64,000 bases of DNA from Escherichia coli (GCF_003019035.1 NZ_CP027448.1); one strand, 5' to 3'. Positions 1 to 30,723 are shown, numbered from the stretch's first letter. The notes: generated by a model not told the origin, from the letters alone. Numbers and translations: made by a program.

Positions 1-225
1 CCTGTTACGGCCATCCTGCATGCGGCTTAAATCCGCCCCGTCTGGCAACCTGCCCTCCAGAAGGCGGGTAAAGACATCCTTATCGACACTGCCCTGCAGC
101 CCCAGTTGTTCAGCCCCCTGGCCGGCCCAGCGTTCTCCCATGCTGCCCAGCACATAGTAATTATCCTTGTCGGTATAATAGTTCCCGGCACTTCCGGCCG
201 ATCTGACCTGCGCAATACTCATCAT
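1..225 (-). CDS. traI: TraI relaxase/helicase, N-terminal 75 codons (partial, runs off window start)
   Basis: Reverse-complement of 1-225 translates MMSIAQVRSAGSAGNYYTDKDNYYVLGSMGERWAGQGAEQLGLQGSVDKDVFTRLLEGRLPDGADL, matching the remembered F TraI N-terminus; ATG at 225, in frame to position 1. Absent from ORF track because no stop in window. Confidence 0.85.
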   Translation of the reverse strand, partial: MMSIAQVRSAGSAGNYYTDKDNYYVLGSMGERWAGQGAEQLGLQGSVDKDVFTRLLEGRLPDGADLSRMQDGRNR

Positions 226-306
226 AAACGTATATCCCTTTGACATATCCCGGCATCAATCCCACAATGGATATACACAAGACATATCCACATAAGGAGG
301 CAAATA

Positions 307-534
307 ATGGAAACCACCGTATTTCTCAGCAACCGCAGCCAGGCGGTCAGACTGCCAAAAGCGGTTGCATTGCCGGAAAACGTAAAACGCGTTGAAGTGA
401 TTGCTGTCGGACGAACCCGAATCATTACGCCTGCCGGAGAGACATGGGACGAATGGTTCGACGGAAACAGTGTCAGCGCTGATTTTATGGATAACAGGGA
501 ACAGCCTGGTATGCAGGAAAGGGAGTCATTCTGA
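307..534 (+). CDS. vapB: VapB/VagC antitoxin (AbrB/SpoVT-type)
   Basis: 75-aa ORF METTVFLSNRSQAVRLPKAV... matches remembered VagC/VapB antitoxins; 1-nt overlap with downstream PIN gene. Confidence 0.85.
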   Translation: METTVFLSNRSQAVRLPKAVALPENVKRVEVIAVGRTRIITPAGETWDEWFDGNSVSADFMDNREQPGMQERESF

Positions 535-932
535 TGCTGAAGTTTATGCTCAATACCAACATCTGCATTTTTACGATAAAGAACAAACCCGCCAGTGTCA
601 GGGAACGTTTTAACCTGAACCAGGGGAGAATGTGCATCAGTTCGGTCACTCTGATGGAGCTGATATATGGTGCAGAAAAAAGCCAGATGCCTGAACGTAA
701 TCTCGCTGTGATCGAGGGATTTGTTTCCCGCATTGACGTTCTGGATTACGACGCTGCTGCTGCCACACACACCGGCCAGATAAGAGCAGAACTTGCCCGT
801 CAGGGACGCCCTGTCGGGCCATTTGATCAAATGATCGCAGGTCATGCCCGCAGTCGGGGACTGATTATTGTGACTAATAACACCCGGGAATTTGAACGTG
901 TGGGCGGCCTGAGAATTGAAGACTGGAGTTGA
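534..932 (+). CDS. vapC: VapC/VagD PIN-domain toxin
   Basis: 132-aa ORF coupled to vapB (stop/start overlap at 532-536); size and sequence consistent with PIN-domain VapC. Confidence 0.85.
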   Translation: MLKFMLNTNICIFTIKNKPASVRERFNLNQGRMCISSVTLMELIYGAEKSQMPERNLAVIEGFVSRIDVLDYDAAAATHTGQIRAELARQGRPVGPFDQMIAGHARSRGLIIVTNNTREFERVGGLRIEDWS

Positions 933-940
933 CCTGTTCA

Positions 941-3094
941 TCAGAAATCATCTCCCGGCTCAACATCCTCCCCGCGCTCCCGGTGCACATTAATGTTCAC
1001 CTCTTCACGACGCTGCATCTGCTGCTGGATGTCCGGATGATTTTCCTGTTGCCATGCCTCATAAGCGGCCATATCCACCACTTCACCGGATTCACTGATC
1101 CCGGGTGGCAGTTGCTGTTCCATCTCTTCTTCCGGTTTCATTTTCAGCTCCTGCTCGATCCCCCCTACCGGAACATTCACACCTGAATCTGACTTCTTAT
1201 CGTTGATGGCAGGAGACACCGGCTGTTGCGGCTGTTCAGCCTGAGTCACGTCTTCTCCGGAAACAACCTCCGGGACATCCGGTTCGAAGAGGCTGGCCAT
1301 CTGACGACCTTCTGCTTCCCTTGCGGCAAGTACGGCACTCAGACGGTTCTCCATTTCCGGGTTGATGTCACGCGGAATAAACTCCGGAGCGACCTTCGGT
1401 CGTGTCTGATATTTCAGAGAGAGTTTTACTGCCGGATACGGTCCGGGCAGGGTGACATAACAGGTCAGATCCGGCAGAGACTGAATGTCGGAATAACTGA
1501 CCAGCGTCTGGCGCTCCATATCCTTACCGGTCGATACCCCGTCACGTACCGGATCAGCACCGTAGGAATACTGCTCGCTGGCTTTCAGGTGCTCTTTCTC
1601 ACCAATTTCACCGGCAGCGAACTCTGCAATCTTATGGCTGGGAGAACGGAAAAAGGCACGGGTGTTCATGACGTCAAACAGCGAGGCAGCCGCTTTCTCA
1701 CCGTAGATATCTTCCAGCTGGGCATAGGACTGGATACCAAACACATAACAGCCACCGAACTTACGGGCTTCCGGCAGGATCTCCACCAGGTCCGGCAGTT
1801 TGTGTAACGTGGGTAACTCATCACAGAAAAACCACACACGACGGTTACGGTTTTCTCCCATTGCCAGCAGACCACGAATGGCAATGGACAGCCACATGGA
1901 GATCACCGGCTTCAGGGAGGCATGGGTGTCGGCATTCGACGAAATAAACAGCCAGCCGTTTTTCTGATCTTCCCGGACACCACGCATCCAGTCACGGATG
2001 GTAAAAGACTCACCGTTATGCTCAATCCCCTGCAGGTAACGGATGGCTTTCACGTAGTTGGTCAGCACAGCACGGATGGAAATCGCCGTTTTCTCAATTT
2101 TCTCTTCCACCAGGTTGGCCGCCGGTGAATTACGCAGGAAGGTACGCAGTTTTTCGATTTTGATGGAAAGCAGTGTGTCCACCAGTTTGCTGTAGCTGCG
2201 GTTGGGGTCATTACGCATCAGGTACGCCGCTTCCGCAAAAATGGTACGTCCTGACCCCTGCCAGAACGGGTCCTCTTTTGTGCCCATCGGGATCAGCGTG
2301 TTCGCGGTATTATCAAAATCCGGCTGTGTCAGGCACTCCTTCCACAAATCCCAGGCGGCACAGCGGGCATCCAGCGGATTCAGGATTTTATCGATGGAGG
2401 GATCATAGTAACTTTTAACAAATTCCCCTGAACGGTCATAAATCACCACCATATCTCCACGCTGACGGGCGTAGTTGGCCAGACGACGGATAACTTCCGA
2501 CTTACCGGCCCCGACCGTGCCGTGCAGACAGAAGTTCTGGATTTCGGAATCCCGGATAATCGGCAGGTCGCCAATCCGTATATCGGAGTCCTTGCCGTCT
2601 TTTTTCAGCATCCGGGCAACGTCTTTCGGATTGTCTGTCAGCTGACGACCACCTGTGACTTCATTTTCGCTCTGTTGTTTACCCTGACGCCCCAGAATCC
2701 AGGAGACAACAAAGAAGGTAATCAGGCAAATAACCAGTGCCACAACTGTGGCCAGAACGAATGCGGACCATAGCTGCTCTCCGCACCAGATCATATATTT
2801 ATCATGCAGTACCTGAGCAGCATTCATCCGGAAGGTTTTGCCGTAATACTGGATCTCATATACCGGCTGGGACTTGATTAAATCCCGCATGCCTTCCAGC
2901 GTGGTACACCACCAGTAAATACAGCCGTTCACAAACGTCTGCCAGCTTATTTTTACCCATAAAACCAGACCAACGAGTATCCAGAAAAAAATAAACAGGC
3001 AGTAAAGCATGATATTGGCGATCTGGCTGAACATGCGGATACGCATGGACGCAATCTGACCGCCCTGGGTCATATCCTTTGCGTTAAAACTCAT
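941..3094 (-). CDS. traD: Type IV coupling protein TraD
   Basis: 717-aa ORF with Walker A (GTVGAGKS), N-terminal TM segments and Q/P/E-rich C-terminal tail ending ...GDDF, as remembered for F TraD. Confidence 0.95.
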
Positions 3095-3345: not shown

Positions 3346-4077
3346 TCAGAGAATATTTGCGATTGATTTGGCCAGCTGGTCTTCGAGAACAGGCTTCGCC
3401 TCTTCAAATTTCAGGTTAACCTTGTTCGCACTGGAGACCACACGGGTCTGATATTTATGCTGGTTACCTGTTTCAGTACTGGTCTGAATTTTCGCACCTG
3501 AAGTGCCCTGACGCAGGGCGGCAACATTATCTGTTGTCACCGTTGTCTTAGTACGCTCTGCAATCTGCACATCCGTGATCATGGTATAGTTCACATCTTC
3601 CACCATCGCATCTGCAGCCATACCCACCAGACCAGCAGCAAGGCCCACACCGAGTGTGGCACCGGCAGAATTGGAATTATATCCGGTAATACCGGCACCT
3701 AACGCTGCACCAACAGCTGCGCCTTCATAACCACGGTTCAGCCATCCCTGAGACTCCCGCAGATCCATCTTATCGGCCTTCAGCACATTCGCCTGAATCC
3801 AGTAGTAGGCTTTATCCGGAGAAGTCACCACCTGATACCCTTTTGCTTTCACAGCATCAGCAATTTTGCCCTGCAGCCCACTCATGTCTTTATCAGACGT
3901 GTTTTTGATCTGCAGAAATACCGTGCGTTCGCTGGCGGGTTCAAGCCAGATGGTCTCACTCATCTGGGTCTTCACCTCAAGGTTACGCTTCTTGATTGCT
4001 GTGCTCATCGCACCACACCCTGAAAGGGCCAGAGTGGAACTGACCAGTGCAACCATCATCAATTTTTTTGTTTTCAT
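3346..4077 (-). CDS. traT: Surface exclusion lipoprotein TraT
   Basis: 243 aa, lipoprotein signal [21 protein letters not shown]; position between traS and traD as in F. Confidence 0.95.
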
Positions 4078-4090
4078 CCAAAATATCCTT

Positions 4091-4600
4091 TTAACTAACA
4101 GACTCTTTTTTGAACAGCCCTATTACTGAGGCTATAGCTGAGAGATTATAACGATTTATGTCTATAGCATAAATAAAGAAAAAGATTATAAACAAAGCAA
4201 TTAATAAAAACTCATATAAGAGTGTATGGGCAAATGAAACCATTGAAAAAGCAATCAAAAATGACAAGATATAAGTTTTGTTCTTATCATACATAAAAGA
4301 TATAACTTTCGACTCATCTCTGAATTTTTCAGGGATAGCAAGATACAACATCATTCCATTAGTAATGGCAACAAAAAGGATAAAACCCATTACGCCACTA
4401 AAACATATATCAAATCCGGCATCTCGGATATCAATTTTATCTGCCAGCAAACGAAGAAATGTTGGCCATAATAAAACCCATAAAAACACATACCCCCCTG
4501 GCTTTATGACCTGTAATAATGGCGGGATATTAACCCCGTCTACAGAGAGTACATCCTTTAGTTTCTGTGTCTCCATTTTTATATCATAGTGAGTGATCAT
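4091..4600 (-). CDS. traS: Entry exclusion inner-membrane protein TraS
   Basis: 169-aa hydrophobic protein located between traG and traT; assigned by position and character, sequence family is variable. Confidence 0.7.
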
Positions 4601-10326: not shown

Positions 10327-10641
10327 ATGGAAAAGCGATCTTTTAAAGAAAAACTGGAAATAATCAGAAACATAATAAGAGAGTCGTTACTGGGAAATGC
10401 GGCAATTATTGCGCTGATATATGCAGCATCACATTCATTACCGGTCAATGCCTTCCCTGACTATCTTGTAATAACTTTATTAAGTATCGCAGCAGGCATC
10501 GTTGTATTATGGTTATTTTCAATTATCTATATTTATTTTTGTGAGCTATTCAGAAGCCACTGGATTGCGGTATGGTTTATCATATGGTCTTCAGTAATCA
10601 ACCTCATTATTTTGTATGGTTTTTATGACCGTTTTATATGA
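10327..10641 (+). CDS. artA: ArtA (anti-sense-orientation ORF within tra region)
   Basis: 104-aa hydrophobic ORF on the opposite strand between traQ and trbA, the F artA arrangement. Confidence 0.55.
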   Translation: MEKRSFKEKLEIIRNIIRESLLGNAAIIALIYAASHSLPVNAFPDYLVITLLSIAAGIVVLWLFSIIYIYFCELFRSHWIAVWFIIWSSVINLIILYGFYDRFI

Positions 10642-10642
10642 C

Positions 10643-10990
10643 TTAGCCTGTCATAAGCCCCCTTATAAAAAACCACATCACTCCGGACCATACCGATGAC
10701 AACACAATACAGATAAATATTCTTCTGAACCTGTCGAAGTTCGTAACGTCCGGTAATGCGGCCGCAACTATTGAAACAACCAGTGCTGCGCCCTGACTCA
10801 TAATTGCACCACACAGAGACCAGAGACTGGCGGTAAGCACATATAAACACGCGATATTAATAACAAGGAAAACCAGTGAGCTCAAGAGAAACATTTTCCT
10901 GTCATTACGCTCAGAAAAGAAATAACCGGCAATAATGACAAATATTAACAGAACAACACCTGTAAACATTTTCAAATAATCTTCACTCAT
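10643..10990 (-). CDS. trbA: TrbA
   Basis: 115-aa membrane ORF between traF and artA/traQ as in F. Confidence 0.6.
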   Translation of the reverse strand: MSEDYLKMFTGVVLLIFVIIAGYFFSERNDRKMFLLSSLVFLVINIACLYVLTASLWSLCGAIMSQGAALVVSIVAAALPDVTNFDRFRRIFICIVLSSVWSGVMWFFIRGLMTG

Positions 10991-24615: not shown

Positions 24616-24843
24616 CTAAAGTTCTTTAAATGTTGACTCGCTCTCTTCGGTCACCTCCCTGAATATTTCTTCGTTATAGAAATCAGGAAACCGTTTCAGA
24701 TGATCTCTGAGACGGATCTGGACTTCTATCGTTTTACTTCTTCCACTACGATCTTTGGCCTTAATAAGTCGGTTATTTGTATCCTCATCGAGATACACCG
24801 AGACCGTTCTGCTTATACCGCCTCTCGCGTTACGCCTCCTCAC
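24616..24843 (-). CDS. traY: TraY (short R100-type, 75 aa, inferred GTG start)
   Basis: C-terminal RHH-like sequence ...RSGRSKTIEVQIRLRDHLKRFPDFYNEEIFRE...; ATG-extended ORF (to 24936) abuts traJ stop leaving no promoter space, so start placed at GTG 24843 preceded by GAGG. Confidence 0.7.
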   Translation of the reverse strand: MRRRNARGGISRTVSVYLDEDTNNRLIKAKDRSGRSKTIEVQIRLRDHLKRFPDFYNEEIFREVTEESESTFKEL

Positions 24844-24936
24844 TAAATTCACCTCTGTTTCCCGACTAATAAAATTATGATTGCACAGAAATCGGCGAAA
24901 AAAAACACGCCAAAATTGGCGTGTCTTATTTAACAT

Positions 24937-25812: not shown

Positions 25813-26196
25813 TTATTCATCATCATTTTTTGGGAAAAACCGGTCCATCTCAACAGACACTTTCTCTCTGATATCGTCAACCATACTGGCATATTCAAAC
25901 TTCGGGTTTCCGGAGACATGAGGACTGAGAGACTCAATACCTAAAATTTTCGCTACTGATGATTGTGTTTTTACAACGCATTCAAGAAGTAATTTATTAA
26001 ACTCAGTCTGATTAAATGCAGACTCTTTACGCTCCATCTGAGCGTCATATACACGGAGCCCTAATTCAAGAAGCATTGAAGCAGTTCCTGAAAGGCTTAT
26101 ATCTTTATCTCTTGCTCCCTCCTGACGACGCTTTTCAACAATCATGTTAATTTTTTCATGAACCTCATTACTGATATACAGATTTACTCTGGCCAT
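25813..26196 (-). CDS. traM: TraM relaxosome accessory protein
   Basis: 127 aa MARVNLYISNEVHEKINMIVEKRRQEGARDKD... closely matches remembered F TraM. Confidence 0.95.
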   Translation of the reverse strand: MARVNLYISNEVHEKINMIVEKRRQEGARDKDISLSGTASMLLELGLRVYDAQMERKESAFNQTEFNKLLLECVVKTQSSVAKILGIESLSPHVSGNPKFEYASMVDDIREKVSVEMDRFFPKNDDE

Positions 26197-29565: not shown

Positions 29566-29724
29566 CTACTTACCGGATTCGTAAGCCATGAAAGCCGCCA
29601 CCTCCCTGTGTCCGTCTCTGTAACGAATCTCGCACAGCGATTTTCGTGTCAGATAAGTGAATATCAACAGTGTGAGACACACGATCAACACACACCAGAC
29701 AAGGGAACTTCGTGGTAGTTTCAT
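29566..29724 (-). CDS. hok: Hok-family toxin (52 aa), flmA/hok
   Basis: Reverse-complement translates [52 protein letters not shown], the Hok sequence as I recall it; below the 60-aa cutoff so absent from ORF track. Confidence 0.9.
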
Positions 29725-30003: not shown

Positions 30004-30723
30004 TCACGCTGCCTCCCGGAGTTTGTTCGGCACCATCCACCGCTCCATCTCACGGACAGCGTGACCGGCCTCTCTTGCTGCAAGACTGGCTTCCGCAATA
30101 ACCTGCCAGAACGGCATATCCTGCCACTGCCAGCGTTCCATTCCGGCCAGTGACGGAAAACGCTCGCCCCACTGCCAGAACAGGGTTTCCAGGTCATGCT
30201 CTGCCACCCGGTCACTCCAGCGTGCATGCCAGCTTCCGACTGTTTCCGGCGAATGGAATGCCAGTTCGATTTCAGCCTGAGCGACCAGCGCCTGGTACGC
30301 ACGGGCTTTCTGCTCTGCCTCCCTCGCCTGCTGGCGGCTGTACTTCTGCATGACCAGCGCGGATTTATGGCGACTGCGTTCCCTGACACGAAACCGCACC
30401 GACGGGAACAAGCGCTCTGCTGCATCACCGGGAAGGGGAAGGAGGCAGACCTCGCCCTGTGTTTCAATCAGCACATCGATGGCATACAGCCACTGAAGAC
30501 GGTTGCCGTGCAGTTCTTCTGCGGTCAGGGACGGCATGAAAAATCGCAGGTCAGACAGCGATATCCTGCGGCTTCCGTTCAGACAGCGGAAAAACGCCCC
30601 CGCATACGGATATTCAGCCAGCGTGTTACCCTGATGGCGGCGTTTTTCGGTCTCCGCCACCGCCCGCCATACGGCCTGTTGCTCTGTGCTGAGGGGAACC
30701 AGTGCCTGTGAACGTGCGCTCAT
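30004..30723 (-). CDS. psiA: PsiA (plasmid SOS inhibition protein A)
   Basis: 239 aa; 4-nt overlap with psiB; synteny ssb..psiB-psiA. Confidence 0.88.

What the first reader, a model, noticed from the sequence alone, without database searches (positions are those of the whole stretch)
226..940. vapBC toxin-antitoxin module embedded antisense between traD and traI
traD ends at 941 and traI starts at 225 on the minus strand. The intervening 715 bp encodes vapB-vapC on the plus strand. Tra-operon read-through to traI must therefore cross the TA module in antisense (convergent transcription), or traI needs its own promoter. A 239-aa minus-strand ORF exactly fills the gap but looks like a shadow of vapBC.
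Basis: partly seen in the sequence, partly recalled or inferred. Interest (0 to 1): 0.45.

Follow-up and report, generated by a model that had tools for sequence, protein, structure and literature searches.

The report
vapBC cassette and trbH bridge ORF
This is the well-known toxin-antitoxin pair that sits backwards between two conjugation genes of F-type plasmids; the arrangement is not new, but the toxin here carries a likely inactivating mutation, and the "shadow" reading frame opposite it seems to be kept open by selection so ribosomes can cross it.

Summary
traD ends at 941-943 and traI starts at 225, both on the minus strand. The 715-bp gap holds vapB (307-534) and vapC (534-932) on the plus strand.

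The layout is already known. The F plasmid has the same cassette, as do pSLT, Shigella pINV, about 1,160 PLSDB plasmids and 759 of 5,426 complete E. coli genomes. R100-type plasmids have the empty site, with traD and traI overlapping as TGATG.

The 239-aa minus-strand ORF is the historical "trbH". Its protein sequence is not conserved: dN/dS is 0.69 (2.3 over vapC), against 0.03-0.05 for VapB and VapC.

It is still more than a chance shadow. In all four deep tra-context lineages (E. coli/Salmonella, Enterobacter, Pantoea, Serratia) the ORF is open and its stop overlaps the traI start. Its start overlaps the upstream stop in three lineages and lies 1 nt after it in Serratia. The same frame is open in 1 of 77 vapBC homologues elsewhere.

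My best reading is that trbH is a sequence-agnostic translated bridge that re-couples traD to traI across the antisense cassette. This mechanism is inferred.

This window's VapC carries D7N at the catalytic aspartate. The allele is absent from complete plasmids and genomes but occurs on 86 draft contigs.

The parts
1..225 (-). 5' end of traI (relaxase/helicase); ATG at 225-223, first 75 codons present in the window
   Evidence: Reading gives MMSIAQVRSAGSAGNYY... RefSeq annotates traI at this position in near-identical plasmids and in F.
222..225 (-). ATGA overlap: traI ATG (225-223) and trbH stop TGA (224-222). One copy of the 4-bp ATGA that flanks the 716-bp cassette.
   Evidence: The empty sites in R100 and pPK8261-tetX read traD-TGATG-traI directly.
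226..306 (+). vapBC control region. Promoter-like TTGACA (240-245), 17-nt spacer, CACAAT (263-268). Repeated GTATATCC/GACATATCC operator-like motifs (227-250 and 266-289; inverted repeats 230-240/266-276 and 268-274/284-290). Shine-Dalgarno AAGGAGG about 294-300.
   Evidence: [quoted passage not shown] Function was not tested here.
307..534 (+). vapB antitoxin, 75 aa (AbrB/MazE-type DNA-binding N-terminus)
   Evidence: Pfam PF04014 and NCBIfam NF040493 at 112 bits. Identical to the F-plasmid VapB. dN/dS 0.046 against pSLT.
534..932 (+). vapC toxin, 132 aa, PIN-domain tRNA(fMet) endonuclease family; carries D7N
   Evidence: Pfam PIN, NCBIfam NF010285 at 288 bits. Near-identical to solved Shigella and F VapC chains. 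dN/dS 0.028.
552..554 (+). Codon 7 of vapC, AAT (Asn) instead of GAT (Asp). G552A is the only difference from the nearest complete plasmids inside the cassette, and it is synonymous in the trbH frame.
   Evidence: mismatch at 552; 0 of 959 PLSDB records and 0 of 772 complete E. coli records match the 61-mer exactly; the exact protein is on 86 contigs, always in the traI-vapBC-traD context. PDB 5ED0 is the engineered D7N protein.
222..941 (-). trbH: 239-aa tra-strand ORF antisense to vapBC. Proposed translated bridge between traD and traI.
   Evidence: Identical to database 'TrbH' entries. No Pfam or NCBIfam hit. dN/dS 0.69 overall and 2.26 over vapC. Open and coupled in all tra-context lineages, against 1 of 77 elsewhere.
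938..943 (-). TGATGA: traD stop TGA (943-941) overlapping the trbH ATG (941-939). Second copy of the flanking ATGA (941-938).
941..3094 (-). traD coupling protein, 717 aa. Its 3' end carries the GGAG Shine-Dalgarno that serves traI in empty-site plasmids and trbH here.

Best explanation
What it is. Window 226-940 is the F-type traD-traI cassette, a 716-bp unit flanked by ATGA. On the anti-tra strand it carries an autoregulated type II toxin-antitoxin operon: vapB, an AbrB/MazE-type antitoxin and repressor, and vapC, a PIN-domain nuclease of the initiator-tRNA-cleaving enteric VapC/MvpT family.

How the TA module works. In its wild-type form the module acts as a plasmid addiction system. Cells that lose the plasmid lose the labile VapB, and VapC then cleaves tRNA-fMet. 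This is established for the Shigella and Salmonella orthologues and was not tested here.

The tra strand. The long tra operon transcript (P_Y near window position 24,900, running to traI) has to cross the cassette antisense. On that strand lies the 239-codon ORF trbH. It starts on the traD stop (TGATG), using the ribosome-binding site and ATG that serve traI in empty-site plasmids. It ends inside the traI start (ATGA).

Proposed role of trbH. I propose that trbH encodes no functional protein. It is kept open so that ribosomes translate across the cassette. That would keep the mRNA covered, limiting Rho-type polarity, and would deliver ribosomes to the traI start by termination-reinitiation.

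This window's allele. VapC carries D7N at a catalytic acidic residue, so the toxin is probably inactive. VapB, the operator region and trbH are untouched.

Shown versus inferred.
- Shown: gene identities, the layout, the selection pattern, conservation of the ORF, and the distribution of the D7N allele.
- Inferred: that trbH is translated, the anti-polarity and coupling role, and the loss of toxicity.
For: Identity.
- Pfam and NCBIfam hits are above the curated cut-offs.
- VapC is near-identical to solved VapC chains.
- F, pSLT and pCP301 have the same annotated layout.
- About 1,160 PLSDB plasmids and 759 of 5,426 complete E. coli genomes carry the cassette.

Selection acts on vapBC, not on the TrbH sequence. 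Comparing the window with pSLT (85.6% nt identity):
- 46 of 53 vapC substitutions fall at vapC codon position 3.
- dN/dS is 0.046 for VapB, 0.028 for VapC, and 0.69 for TrbH (2.26 over the vapC part).
- vapC dS (0.83) is about the same as traD dS (0.96), so there is no second layer of constraint and the cassette co-diverged with its flanks.

The ORF is maintained.
- It is open in the window, F, pCP301 and pSLT (239 aa), in E. albertii and in four E. coli drafts.
- It is also open in Enterobacter (L012, L097) and Pantoea (L013, L095, L096) at 250 aa, and in Serratia (L088) at 267 aa.
- In E. coli/Salmonella, Enterobacter and Pantoea the ATG overlaps the upstream stop. In Serratia it lies 1 nt after it.
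- In every case the stop overlaps the traI ATG.
- Gap lengths of 716, 752 and 800 nt are all 2 mod 3.
- vapC dS between the deep lineages is saturated.

Controls.
- Among 77 vapBC homologues outside tra operons, the same frame (or any antisense frame) is open in 1. It is open in 0 of 52 with GC3 at or below 0.65, where the mean is about 5 stops.
- Synonymous resampling with GC3-matched family codon usage gives P(open) of 0.037, 0.05, 0.014, 0.048 and 0.115 per lineage. The product is about 3e-4 to 1e-7, depending on how many lineages are counted as independent.
- The null over-predicts openness in the non-tra loci (2.85 expected, 0 observed).

Empty site. R100 and pPK8261-tetX read traD-TGATG-traI.

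D7N. E42, D98 and E119 are intact on direct reading of the sequence.
Against: - There is no direct evidence that trbH is translated. It has no domain hit.
- From memory, and not checkable here (PMC193242 is not held), F trbH insertion mutants transferred normally, and traI was reported to have a TraJ-independent promoter. Either would make read-through dispensable in the laboratory.
- A second anti-tra gene in the same operon, artA (window 10327-10641), sits in the roughly 350-nt trbA-traQ gap with no bridging tra-strand ORF. Bridging is therefore not a general requirement.
- The tra-context lineages share ancestry, so the independence assumed in the probability product is only approximate.
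- In Serratia an extra MobF-fragment ORF, not traD, precedes the bridge, and there is an 88-nt gap upstream of that ORF.
- Loss of activity by D7N rests on engineered mutants of the Shigella orthologue (PDB 5ED0 and 5ECW exist; their non-toxicity is from memory). It was not assayed for this allele.
Confidence: 0.6

Rival explanations
1. trbH is a pure shadow ORF, open by chance. The tra transcript crosses the cassette untranslated, or traI is expressed mainly from its own promoter, so the ORF has no role.
For: - The TrbH sequence evolves without protein-level constraint and has no family hit.
- Its frame over vapC is the classic shadow frame, in which only TTA, CTA or TCA codons create stops. 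Chance openness is about 1-11% per lineage, which is not negligible.
- The artA gap has no bridge.
- A weak minus-strand promoter-like site lies at 601->573.
Against: - The ORF is open and start/stop-coupled in all four deep tra-context lineages despite saturated synonymous divergence.
- Indels between lineages preserve the frame (716, 752 and 800 nt, all 2 mod 3).
- Only 1 of 77 non-tra homologues is open, including E. coli homologues (L008, L009) whose VapC is closer to F VapC than the Enterobacter, Pantoea or Serratia ones are.
- The null is calibrated and conservative.
Confidence: 0.2
2. TrbH is a genuine functional protein of the transfer system, overlapping vapBC as a dual-coding gene.
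For: The ORF is conserved in length class and position. It was historically named as a tra-region gene and is deposited as TrbH.
Against: - dN/dS is 0.69 overall and 2.26 over vapC. Amino-acid identity is 72% at 86% nucleotide identity.
- vapC dS is not depressed relative to traD.
- Length differs between lineages (239, 250, 267 aa), and the non-overlapped C-terminus diverges except where the vapB promoter is mirrored.
- No Pfam or NCBIfam domain.
- The cassette is absent from most F-like plasmids, including R100.
Confidence: 0.07
3. The vapBC module in this window is a fully active addiction system, because D7N is tolerated by the nuclease.
For: - Both ORFs are intact, and VapB and the operator region are identical to F.
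- Three of the four acidic active-site residues are intact.
- The allele persists on at least 86 contigs.
Against: - D7 is invariant in all other tra-context VapCs examined and in every matching complete plasmid or genome.
- D7N and D7A were engineered for crystallography of the free toxin (PDB 5ED0, 5ECW). From memory, this was possible because they abolish toxicity.
- The plasmid also carries hok at 29566-29724, so loss of VapC activity need not destabilise it.
Confidence: 0.15

Closest known systems
F plasmid traD-traI region (trbH; Swiss-Prot 'Uncharacterized protein in traD-traI intergenic region')
   Same: Same layout, same 716-bp cassette, identical VapB, and the same 239-aa trbH ORF with TGATG and ATGA overlaps.
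   Different: F VapC has D7, V43 and L89, whereas the window has N7, L43 and R89. The window is a different mosaic F-like plasmid.
Shigella pINV MvpAT/VapBC (pMYSH6000, pWR100, pCP301)
   Same: About 97% nucleotide identity across the whole cassette, including flanks. trbH is annotated over it. VapC structures have been solved. An antisense transcript 'as-trbH' is described (bioRxiv 10.1101/2025.06.29.662172).
   Different: In pCP301 traD is reduced to a 61-aa remnant next to IS600 and traI is split, so the tra operon is defunct there. VapC has D7, K32 and T128.
Salmonella pSLT VapBC2 ('encoded within the trbH gene', PMC5065971)
   Same: Same position between traD and traI, and the same 239-aa bridge ORF and overlaps.
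   Different: 85.6% nucleotide identity. VapC has D7. Reported to contribute to pSLT stability and to intracellular survival (PMC5065971).
R100/R1-type traD-traI junction (empty site)
   Same: The same traD 3' end, Shine-Dalgarno and TGATG overlap.
   Different: No cassette. traD is directly translationally coupled to traI.
artA, the other anti-tra-strand gene of the F tra operon
   Same: A gene embedded antisense in an intergenic gap of the same operon.
   Different: There is no tra-strand ORF across it, and the tra-strand RNA there is AT-rich.
Translational coupling by overlapping stop/start codons (for example the trp operon UGAUG junctions) and Rho-dependent polarity of untranslated operon segments
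   Same: TGATG and ATGA overlaps at both ends of trbH. The role proposed is to keep ribosomes on the mRNA (established general knowledge).
   Different: Here the coupled ORF would be a spacer with no protein function, lying antisense to a TA operon. That has not been demonstrated.

Membership tests
Enteric VapBC (MvpAT) type II toxin-antitoxin | Toxin is a PIN-domain protein of the tRNA(fMet)-specific VapC subfamily | tested here: met
   Pfam PIN E = 3e-19. NCBIfam NF010285 288 bits against a cut-off of 143. Near-identical to PDB 3TND, 6SD6 and 9H6A chains.
Enteric VapBC (MvpAT) type II toxin-antitoxin | Complete acidic active-site quartet (D7, E42, D98, E119 in Shigella numbering; the numbering is from memory) | tested here: not met
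   Residue 7 is Asn (AAT at 552-554). E42, D98 and E119 are present (and direct reading). The gene is a member by descent but probably not an active toxin.
Enteric VapBC (MvpAT) type II toxin-antitoxin | Upstream antitoxin with an AbrB/MazE-type DNA-binding domain, with its stop overlapping the toxin start | tested here: met
   PF04014 and NF040493 at 112 bits against a cut-off of 60. TGATG overlap at 532-536.
Enteric VapBC (MvpAT) type II toxin-antitoxin | Autoregulated promoter with inverted-repeat operators | tested here: inconclusive
   A promoter-like site (10 of 12 matches) and repeated or inverted GTATATCC/GGATATAC motifs are present. Binding and repression were not testable.
Enteric VapBC (MvpAT) type II toxin-antitoxin | Cleavage of initiator tRNA and post-segregational killing | not testable with these tools
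   Known for the orthologues (PMC5065971 cites Winther & Gerdes 2011 and Sayeed 2000). An assay is needed, especially for D7N.
F-type traD-traI cassette / trbH | Lies exactly between the traD stop and the traI start of an MPF-F/MOB-F tra operon, on the opposite strand to vapBC | tested here: met
F-type traD-traI cassette / trbH | 239-aa tra-strand ORF matching deposited TrbH | tested here: met
   Exact match to TrbH of E. coli O157:H- 493-89, in a cluster with the Shigella TrbH entries.
Functional protein-coding gene (for trbH) | Purifying selection on the amino-acid sequence | tested here: not met
   dN/dS 0.69 overall and 2.26 over vapC. No depression of vapC dS.
Translationally coupled operon ORF (for trbH) | Start and stop codons overlap or abut the neighbouring cistrons, conserved across lineages | tested here: met
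   TGATG or TAATG at the 5' end (a 1-nt gap in Serratia) and ATGA or TGATG at the traI start, in 4 deep lineages.
Translationally coupled operon ORF (for trbH) | The ORF is actually translated, and its translation affects downstream expression | not testable with these tools
   Needs ribosome profiling or a reporter or nonsense-mutant experiment.

The most novel reading that the evidence does not exclude
trbH is a 'bridge ORF'. It is a reading frame kept open and start/stop-coupled purely so that ribosomes traverse an antisense toxin-antitoxin cassette inside a 25-kb operon. Selection acts on ORF integrity, not on the protein. As a corollary, induction of the tra operon would drive transcription and translation head-on through vapBC. 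That could tie toxin-antitoxin expression to the conjugation state of the donor. I found no paper proposing either idea, but the library searched is incomplete.
Probability: 0.5. Interest if true: 0.6.

Novelty: already known. Interest (0 to 1): 0.4.

Why it matters
The arrangement itself is textbook-level F biology and deserves no novelty credit.

Two things are worth keeping.

1. The classical "gene" trbH behaves neither as a real protein gene nor as a chance shadow. Its sequence drifts freely, while its openness and coupling are preserved across Enterobacterales F-like plasmids. If confirmed, it would be a clean natural example of selection on translation itself. It would also explain how an operon tolerates a gene cassette inserted backwards at a translationally coupled junction. 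The test is simple: a vapC-synonymous stop codon in trbH.

2. A circulating E. coli plasmid lineage carries VapC with the catalytic Asp7 replaced by Asn. This is a natural "dead toxin" that leaves the antitoxin, the operator and the bridge ORF intact. It is relevant to how addiction modules decay, and it shows that counting TA genes from annotation can over-estimate functional systems.

Tried and rejected
- Broken-trbH counterexamples. The 96-aa and 67-aa 'TrbH' database entries looked like interrupted ORFs. The underlying contigs have the full 239-aa ORF, so the short entries are truncated gene calls.
- First resampling nulls. Codon usage taken from long window ORFs and from flanking tra genes gave unstable values from 0.0065 to 0.46. 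The window entry was contaminated by non-coding frames. I replaced these with codon usage from GC3-matched vapC homologues outside tra operons and checked calibration on those loci.
- traI-proximal promoter. The consensus scan gives only one weak minus-strand site (601->573, 9 of 12 matches) inside vapC. This is inconclusive, and I make no claim from it.
- Intrinsic terminators. Only weak plus-strand candidates were found. The vapC and traD stop codons are 8 bp apart, so the two transcripts must overlap at their 3' ends.
- Rfam. No known RNA family in 1-1400 at E <= 1.
- Literature. Nothing found for VapC D7N. Maneewannakul & Ippen-Ihler 1993 on trbH mutants is not held. No paper was found on traD-traI read-through, Rho polarity or a bridge ORF.
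- Sequencing error or engineered origin for D7N. Rejected, because the exact protein occurs on 86 contigs from independent assemblies, always in the same context. The window is identical over 4.9 kb to one of them.
- Generality of bridging. The artA gap in the same operon has no bridge ORF. I do not claim a general rule.

Full report
**Observation**

- traD is the 717-aa minus-strand ORF 941..3094. Its stop codon is at 943-941.
- traI begins at 225 on the minus strand. Reading, the window holds its first 75 codons (MMSIAQVRSAGSAGNYY...), which I recognise from memory as the F TraI N-terminus. RefSeq annotates traI at the same place in near-identical plasmids and in F.
- The gap 226-940 is 715 bp. 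It holds two plus-strand ORFs, vapB (307-534, 75 aa) and vapC (534-932, 132 aa). Their stop and start overlap as TGATG.
- VapB matches Pfam MazE_antitoxin and NCBIfam NF040493 (112 bits, cut-off 60). VapC matches Pfam PIN (3e-19) and NCBIfam NF010285, tRNA(fMet)-specific endonuclease VapC (288 bits, cut-off 143).
- A 239-aa minus-strand ORF (941 down to 222) fills the gap exactly. It has no Pfam or NCBIfam match.
- No Rfam family matches the region.

**The arrangement is already known**

- The F plasmid (NC_002483) has traD, then vapC and vapB on the opposite strand, then traI, with identical spacing. Its VapB is identical to the window's.
- Salmonella pSLT has the same layout. So does Shigella pCP301, where the genes are called mvpA/mvpT and the overlapping ORF is annotated trbH.
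- In PLSDB, 4,209 plasmids match the traD and traI ends. Of these, 1,159-1,165 carry the cassette.
- 759 of 5,426 complete E. coli genomes carry it, almost always on plasmids.
- The literature says the same. PMC5065971 describes vapBC2ST as 'encoded within the trbH gene' of pSLT and as homologous to mvpAT. A Shigella preprint (10.1101/2025.06.29.662172) mentions an antisense transcript, 'as-trbH', of unknown function. UniRef names VapB an 'uncharacterized protein in traD-traI intergenic region'.
- PMC5102898 used F TrbH as a query and found it annotated in only 8% of MOB-F12 plasmids.

**Filled and empty sites**

- In R100, traD and traI overlap by one base...GATGATTTCTGATGTTGAGT....
- Many plasmids whose flanks are 97-99% identical to the window lack exactly 716 bp. 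One of them, pPK8261-tetX, reads ...TTTCTGATGATGAGTATC....
- In the window the same traD end reads TGATG AACAGG..., and the traI start reads ...CGTTT ATGATGAGT.
- The cassette is therefore a 716-bp unit flanked by ATGA.
- The ATG that initiates traI at an empty site, together with the GGAG upstream of it in the traD 3' end, initiates trbH at a filled site.
- trbH then ends at the TGA embedded in the ATGATG of traI. This explains why the ORF 'exactly fills the gap'.

**Is trbH a conserved protein? No.**

I compared the window with pSLT. They differ at 104 positions in 722 bp, with no indels.
- 46 of the 53 substitutions in vapC fall on vapC codon position 3, which is trbH position 1.
- In vapB, 22 of 30 fall on position 3.
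- Nei-Gojobori dN/dS is 0.046 for VapB and 0.028 for VapC. For TrbH it is 0.69 overall and 2.26 over the part opposite vapC.
- TrbH is 72% identical at the amino-acid level, against 93-95% for VapB and VapC.
- vapC dS (0.83) is about the same as dS in the adjacent traD (0.96). So no second coding layer slows vapC synonymous change, and the cassette has diverged together with its flanks.

**Is trbH then only a chance shadow? The evidence says no.**

A scan of one genome per species with VapC returned 80 loci.
- Two of them, an Enterobacter MAG (L012) and Ca. Pantoea gossypiicola (L013), have traD and traI flanks. Their VapC is only about 83% identical to the F VapC.
- Both have a 250-aa antisense ORF. 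Its ATG overlaps the traD stop (TAATG or TGATG) and its TGA overlaps the traI ATG (TGATG).
- Plasmids from Enterobacter huaxiensis, Pantoea ananatis and P. agglomerans show the same arrangement.
- A Serratia proteamaculans plasmid at 71% nucleotide identity has a 267-aa ORF. It starts 1 nt after the stop of an upstream MobF-fragment ORF and ends in ATGA on traI.
- E. albertii pEA11_1 and four E. coli drafts also keep the 239-aa ORF.
- The gap lengths 716, 752 and 800 are all 2 mod 3.
- Synonymous divergence of vapC between these lineages is saturated. dS is 1.6 or more, except for window-pSLT at 0.83.

The picture is different among the 77 vapBC homologues that are not between traD and traI.
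- The equivalent antisense frame is open across vapB and vapC in one, a Pseudomonas with GC3 of 0.85.
- It is open in none of the 52 with GC3 at or below 0.65, where the mean is about five stops.
- Allowing any of the three antisense frames changes nothing.
- The broken cases include two E. coli homologues (L008, L009) whose VapC is closer to F VapC than the Enterobacter, Pantoea or Serratia proteins are.

I also resampled synonymous codons of vapB and vapC, using the codon usage of GC3-matched non-tra homologues.
- The frame stays open in 3.7%, 5.0%, 1.4%, 4.8% and 11.5% of trials for the five lineage representatives.
- The joint probability is roughly 3e-4 if only three lineages are treated as independent, and 1e-7 if all five are.
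- Applied to the non-tra loci, the same null predicts 2.85 open cases where 0 were observed. It is therefore conservative.

My conclusion is that selection preserves the openness and the coupling of trbH, but not its sequence.

**Mechanism (inferred)**

- The window contains the whole tra operon on the minus strand: traM 25813-26196, traJ, traY 24616-24843, and on down to traD and traI.
- The simplest reading is that ribosomes finishing traD restart at once on trbH, translate its 239 codons, terminate at ATGA, and reinitiate on traI. Purine-rich Shine-Dalgarno-like motifs lie 8-10 nt upstream of the traI ATG in each lineage.
- Continuous translation would also protect a 716-nt segment from Rho loading. 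That segment has several C-over-G stretches on the tra strand: 31 C to 20 G, and 33 C to 16 G, per 100 nt.
- Caveats follow.
  - No translation data exist here.
  - From memory, F trbH insertion mutants transfer normally and traI has a TraJ-independent promoter. The relevant paper is not held.
  - The other anti-tra gene of the operon, artA (10327-10641), has no bridging ORF. However, the tra-strand RNA there is AT-rich.
  - The promoter scan finds only one weak minus-strand site upstream of traI (601->573).

**The D7N allele**

- Inside the cassette, the window differs from its closest complete relatives by one base, G552A. This turns VapC codon 7 from Asp to Asn.
- None of the 959 PLSDB records that match the surrounding 61-mer has it. 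Nor does any of the 772 records from complete E. coli genomes.
- The exact protein is nevertheless on 86 contigs in the large collection. All 24 contigs inspected have the traI-vapB-vapC-traD-traT context.
- The window is identical over 4.9 kb to one of those contigs, from GCA_020350545.1. The allele is therefore real and clonally propagated, not an error.
- D7 is invariant in all the other tra-context VapCs examined.
- PDB 5ED0 and 5ECW are engineered D7N and D7A versions of the Shigella protein. From memory, these were made because they abolish toxicity.
- E42, D98 and E119 are intact.
- The change is synonymous in trbH: the window's TrbH is identical to that of pSFO157.
- The plasmid also carries hok (29566-29724).
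- I infer a catalytically dead toxin in an otherwise intact module, with about 0.8 confidence.

**Verdict**

vapBC is real and antisense, but it is not novel, and 'shadow' is an incomplete description of trbH.
- The locus itself is already known.
- Two leads are worth following: the conserved, sequence-agnostic bridge ORF, and the natural D7N toxin allele.

Noticed in passing
window 10327-10641 (+), between trbA (10643-10990, -) and traQ: artA, a second gene on the anti-tra strand inside the tra operon. Unlike vapBC, it has no tra-strand ORF across it; only 25-45-aa fragments occur, and the tra-strand RNA there is AT-rich.
   Followed up: partly
L088 (Serratia proteamaculans NZ_MT039190.1) 2402-3082: A 226-aa 'MobF family relaxase' fragment ORF sits between traD and the vapBC cassette. 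The bridge ORF starts 1 nt after its stop, and an 88-nt gap separates it from traD.
   Followed up: no
L096 (Pantoea agglomerans NZ_CP143405.1) 1042-1494: The vapC stop codon is mutated (TAG to CAG). This gives a 150-aa VapC that runs 46 nt into the antisense of traD. The bridge ORF is unaffected (CTA to CTG on the tra strand).
   Followed up: no
PDB 9H6A-9H6D: Four recent entries have exactly the F-plasmid VapC sequence (V43, L89), so the F module has been studied structurally. I found no associated paper in the library.
   Followed up: no
L089 (E. albertii pEA11_1) about 2330-2360: The traD 3' end carries an internal deletion, and traD and traI are not listed as genes. The 239-aa bridge ORF and both overlaps are still intact.
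   Followed up: partly
window 29566-29724: A hok-family type I toxin gene in the leading region, next to psiA (30004-30723). It is a second post-segregational killing system on the same plasmid as the D7N VapC.
   Followed up: partly
window 39001-64000: This part matches a different set of plasmids (ThiF-family protein, autotransporter, integrases, ParA/ParB) at 99.5-99.8% identity. No single PLSDB record covers both halves of the window, so the plasmid is a mosaic not present as a complete record.
   Followed up: no
L006 (pCP301) 3786-4411: In AF386526 the gene names are swapped relative to size. The 75-aa antitoxin ORF is labelled mvpT and the 132-aa PIN toxin mvpA. This is a trap for annotation transfer.
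   Followed up: no
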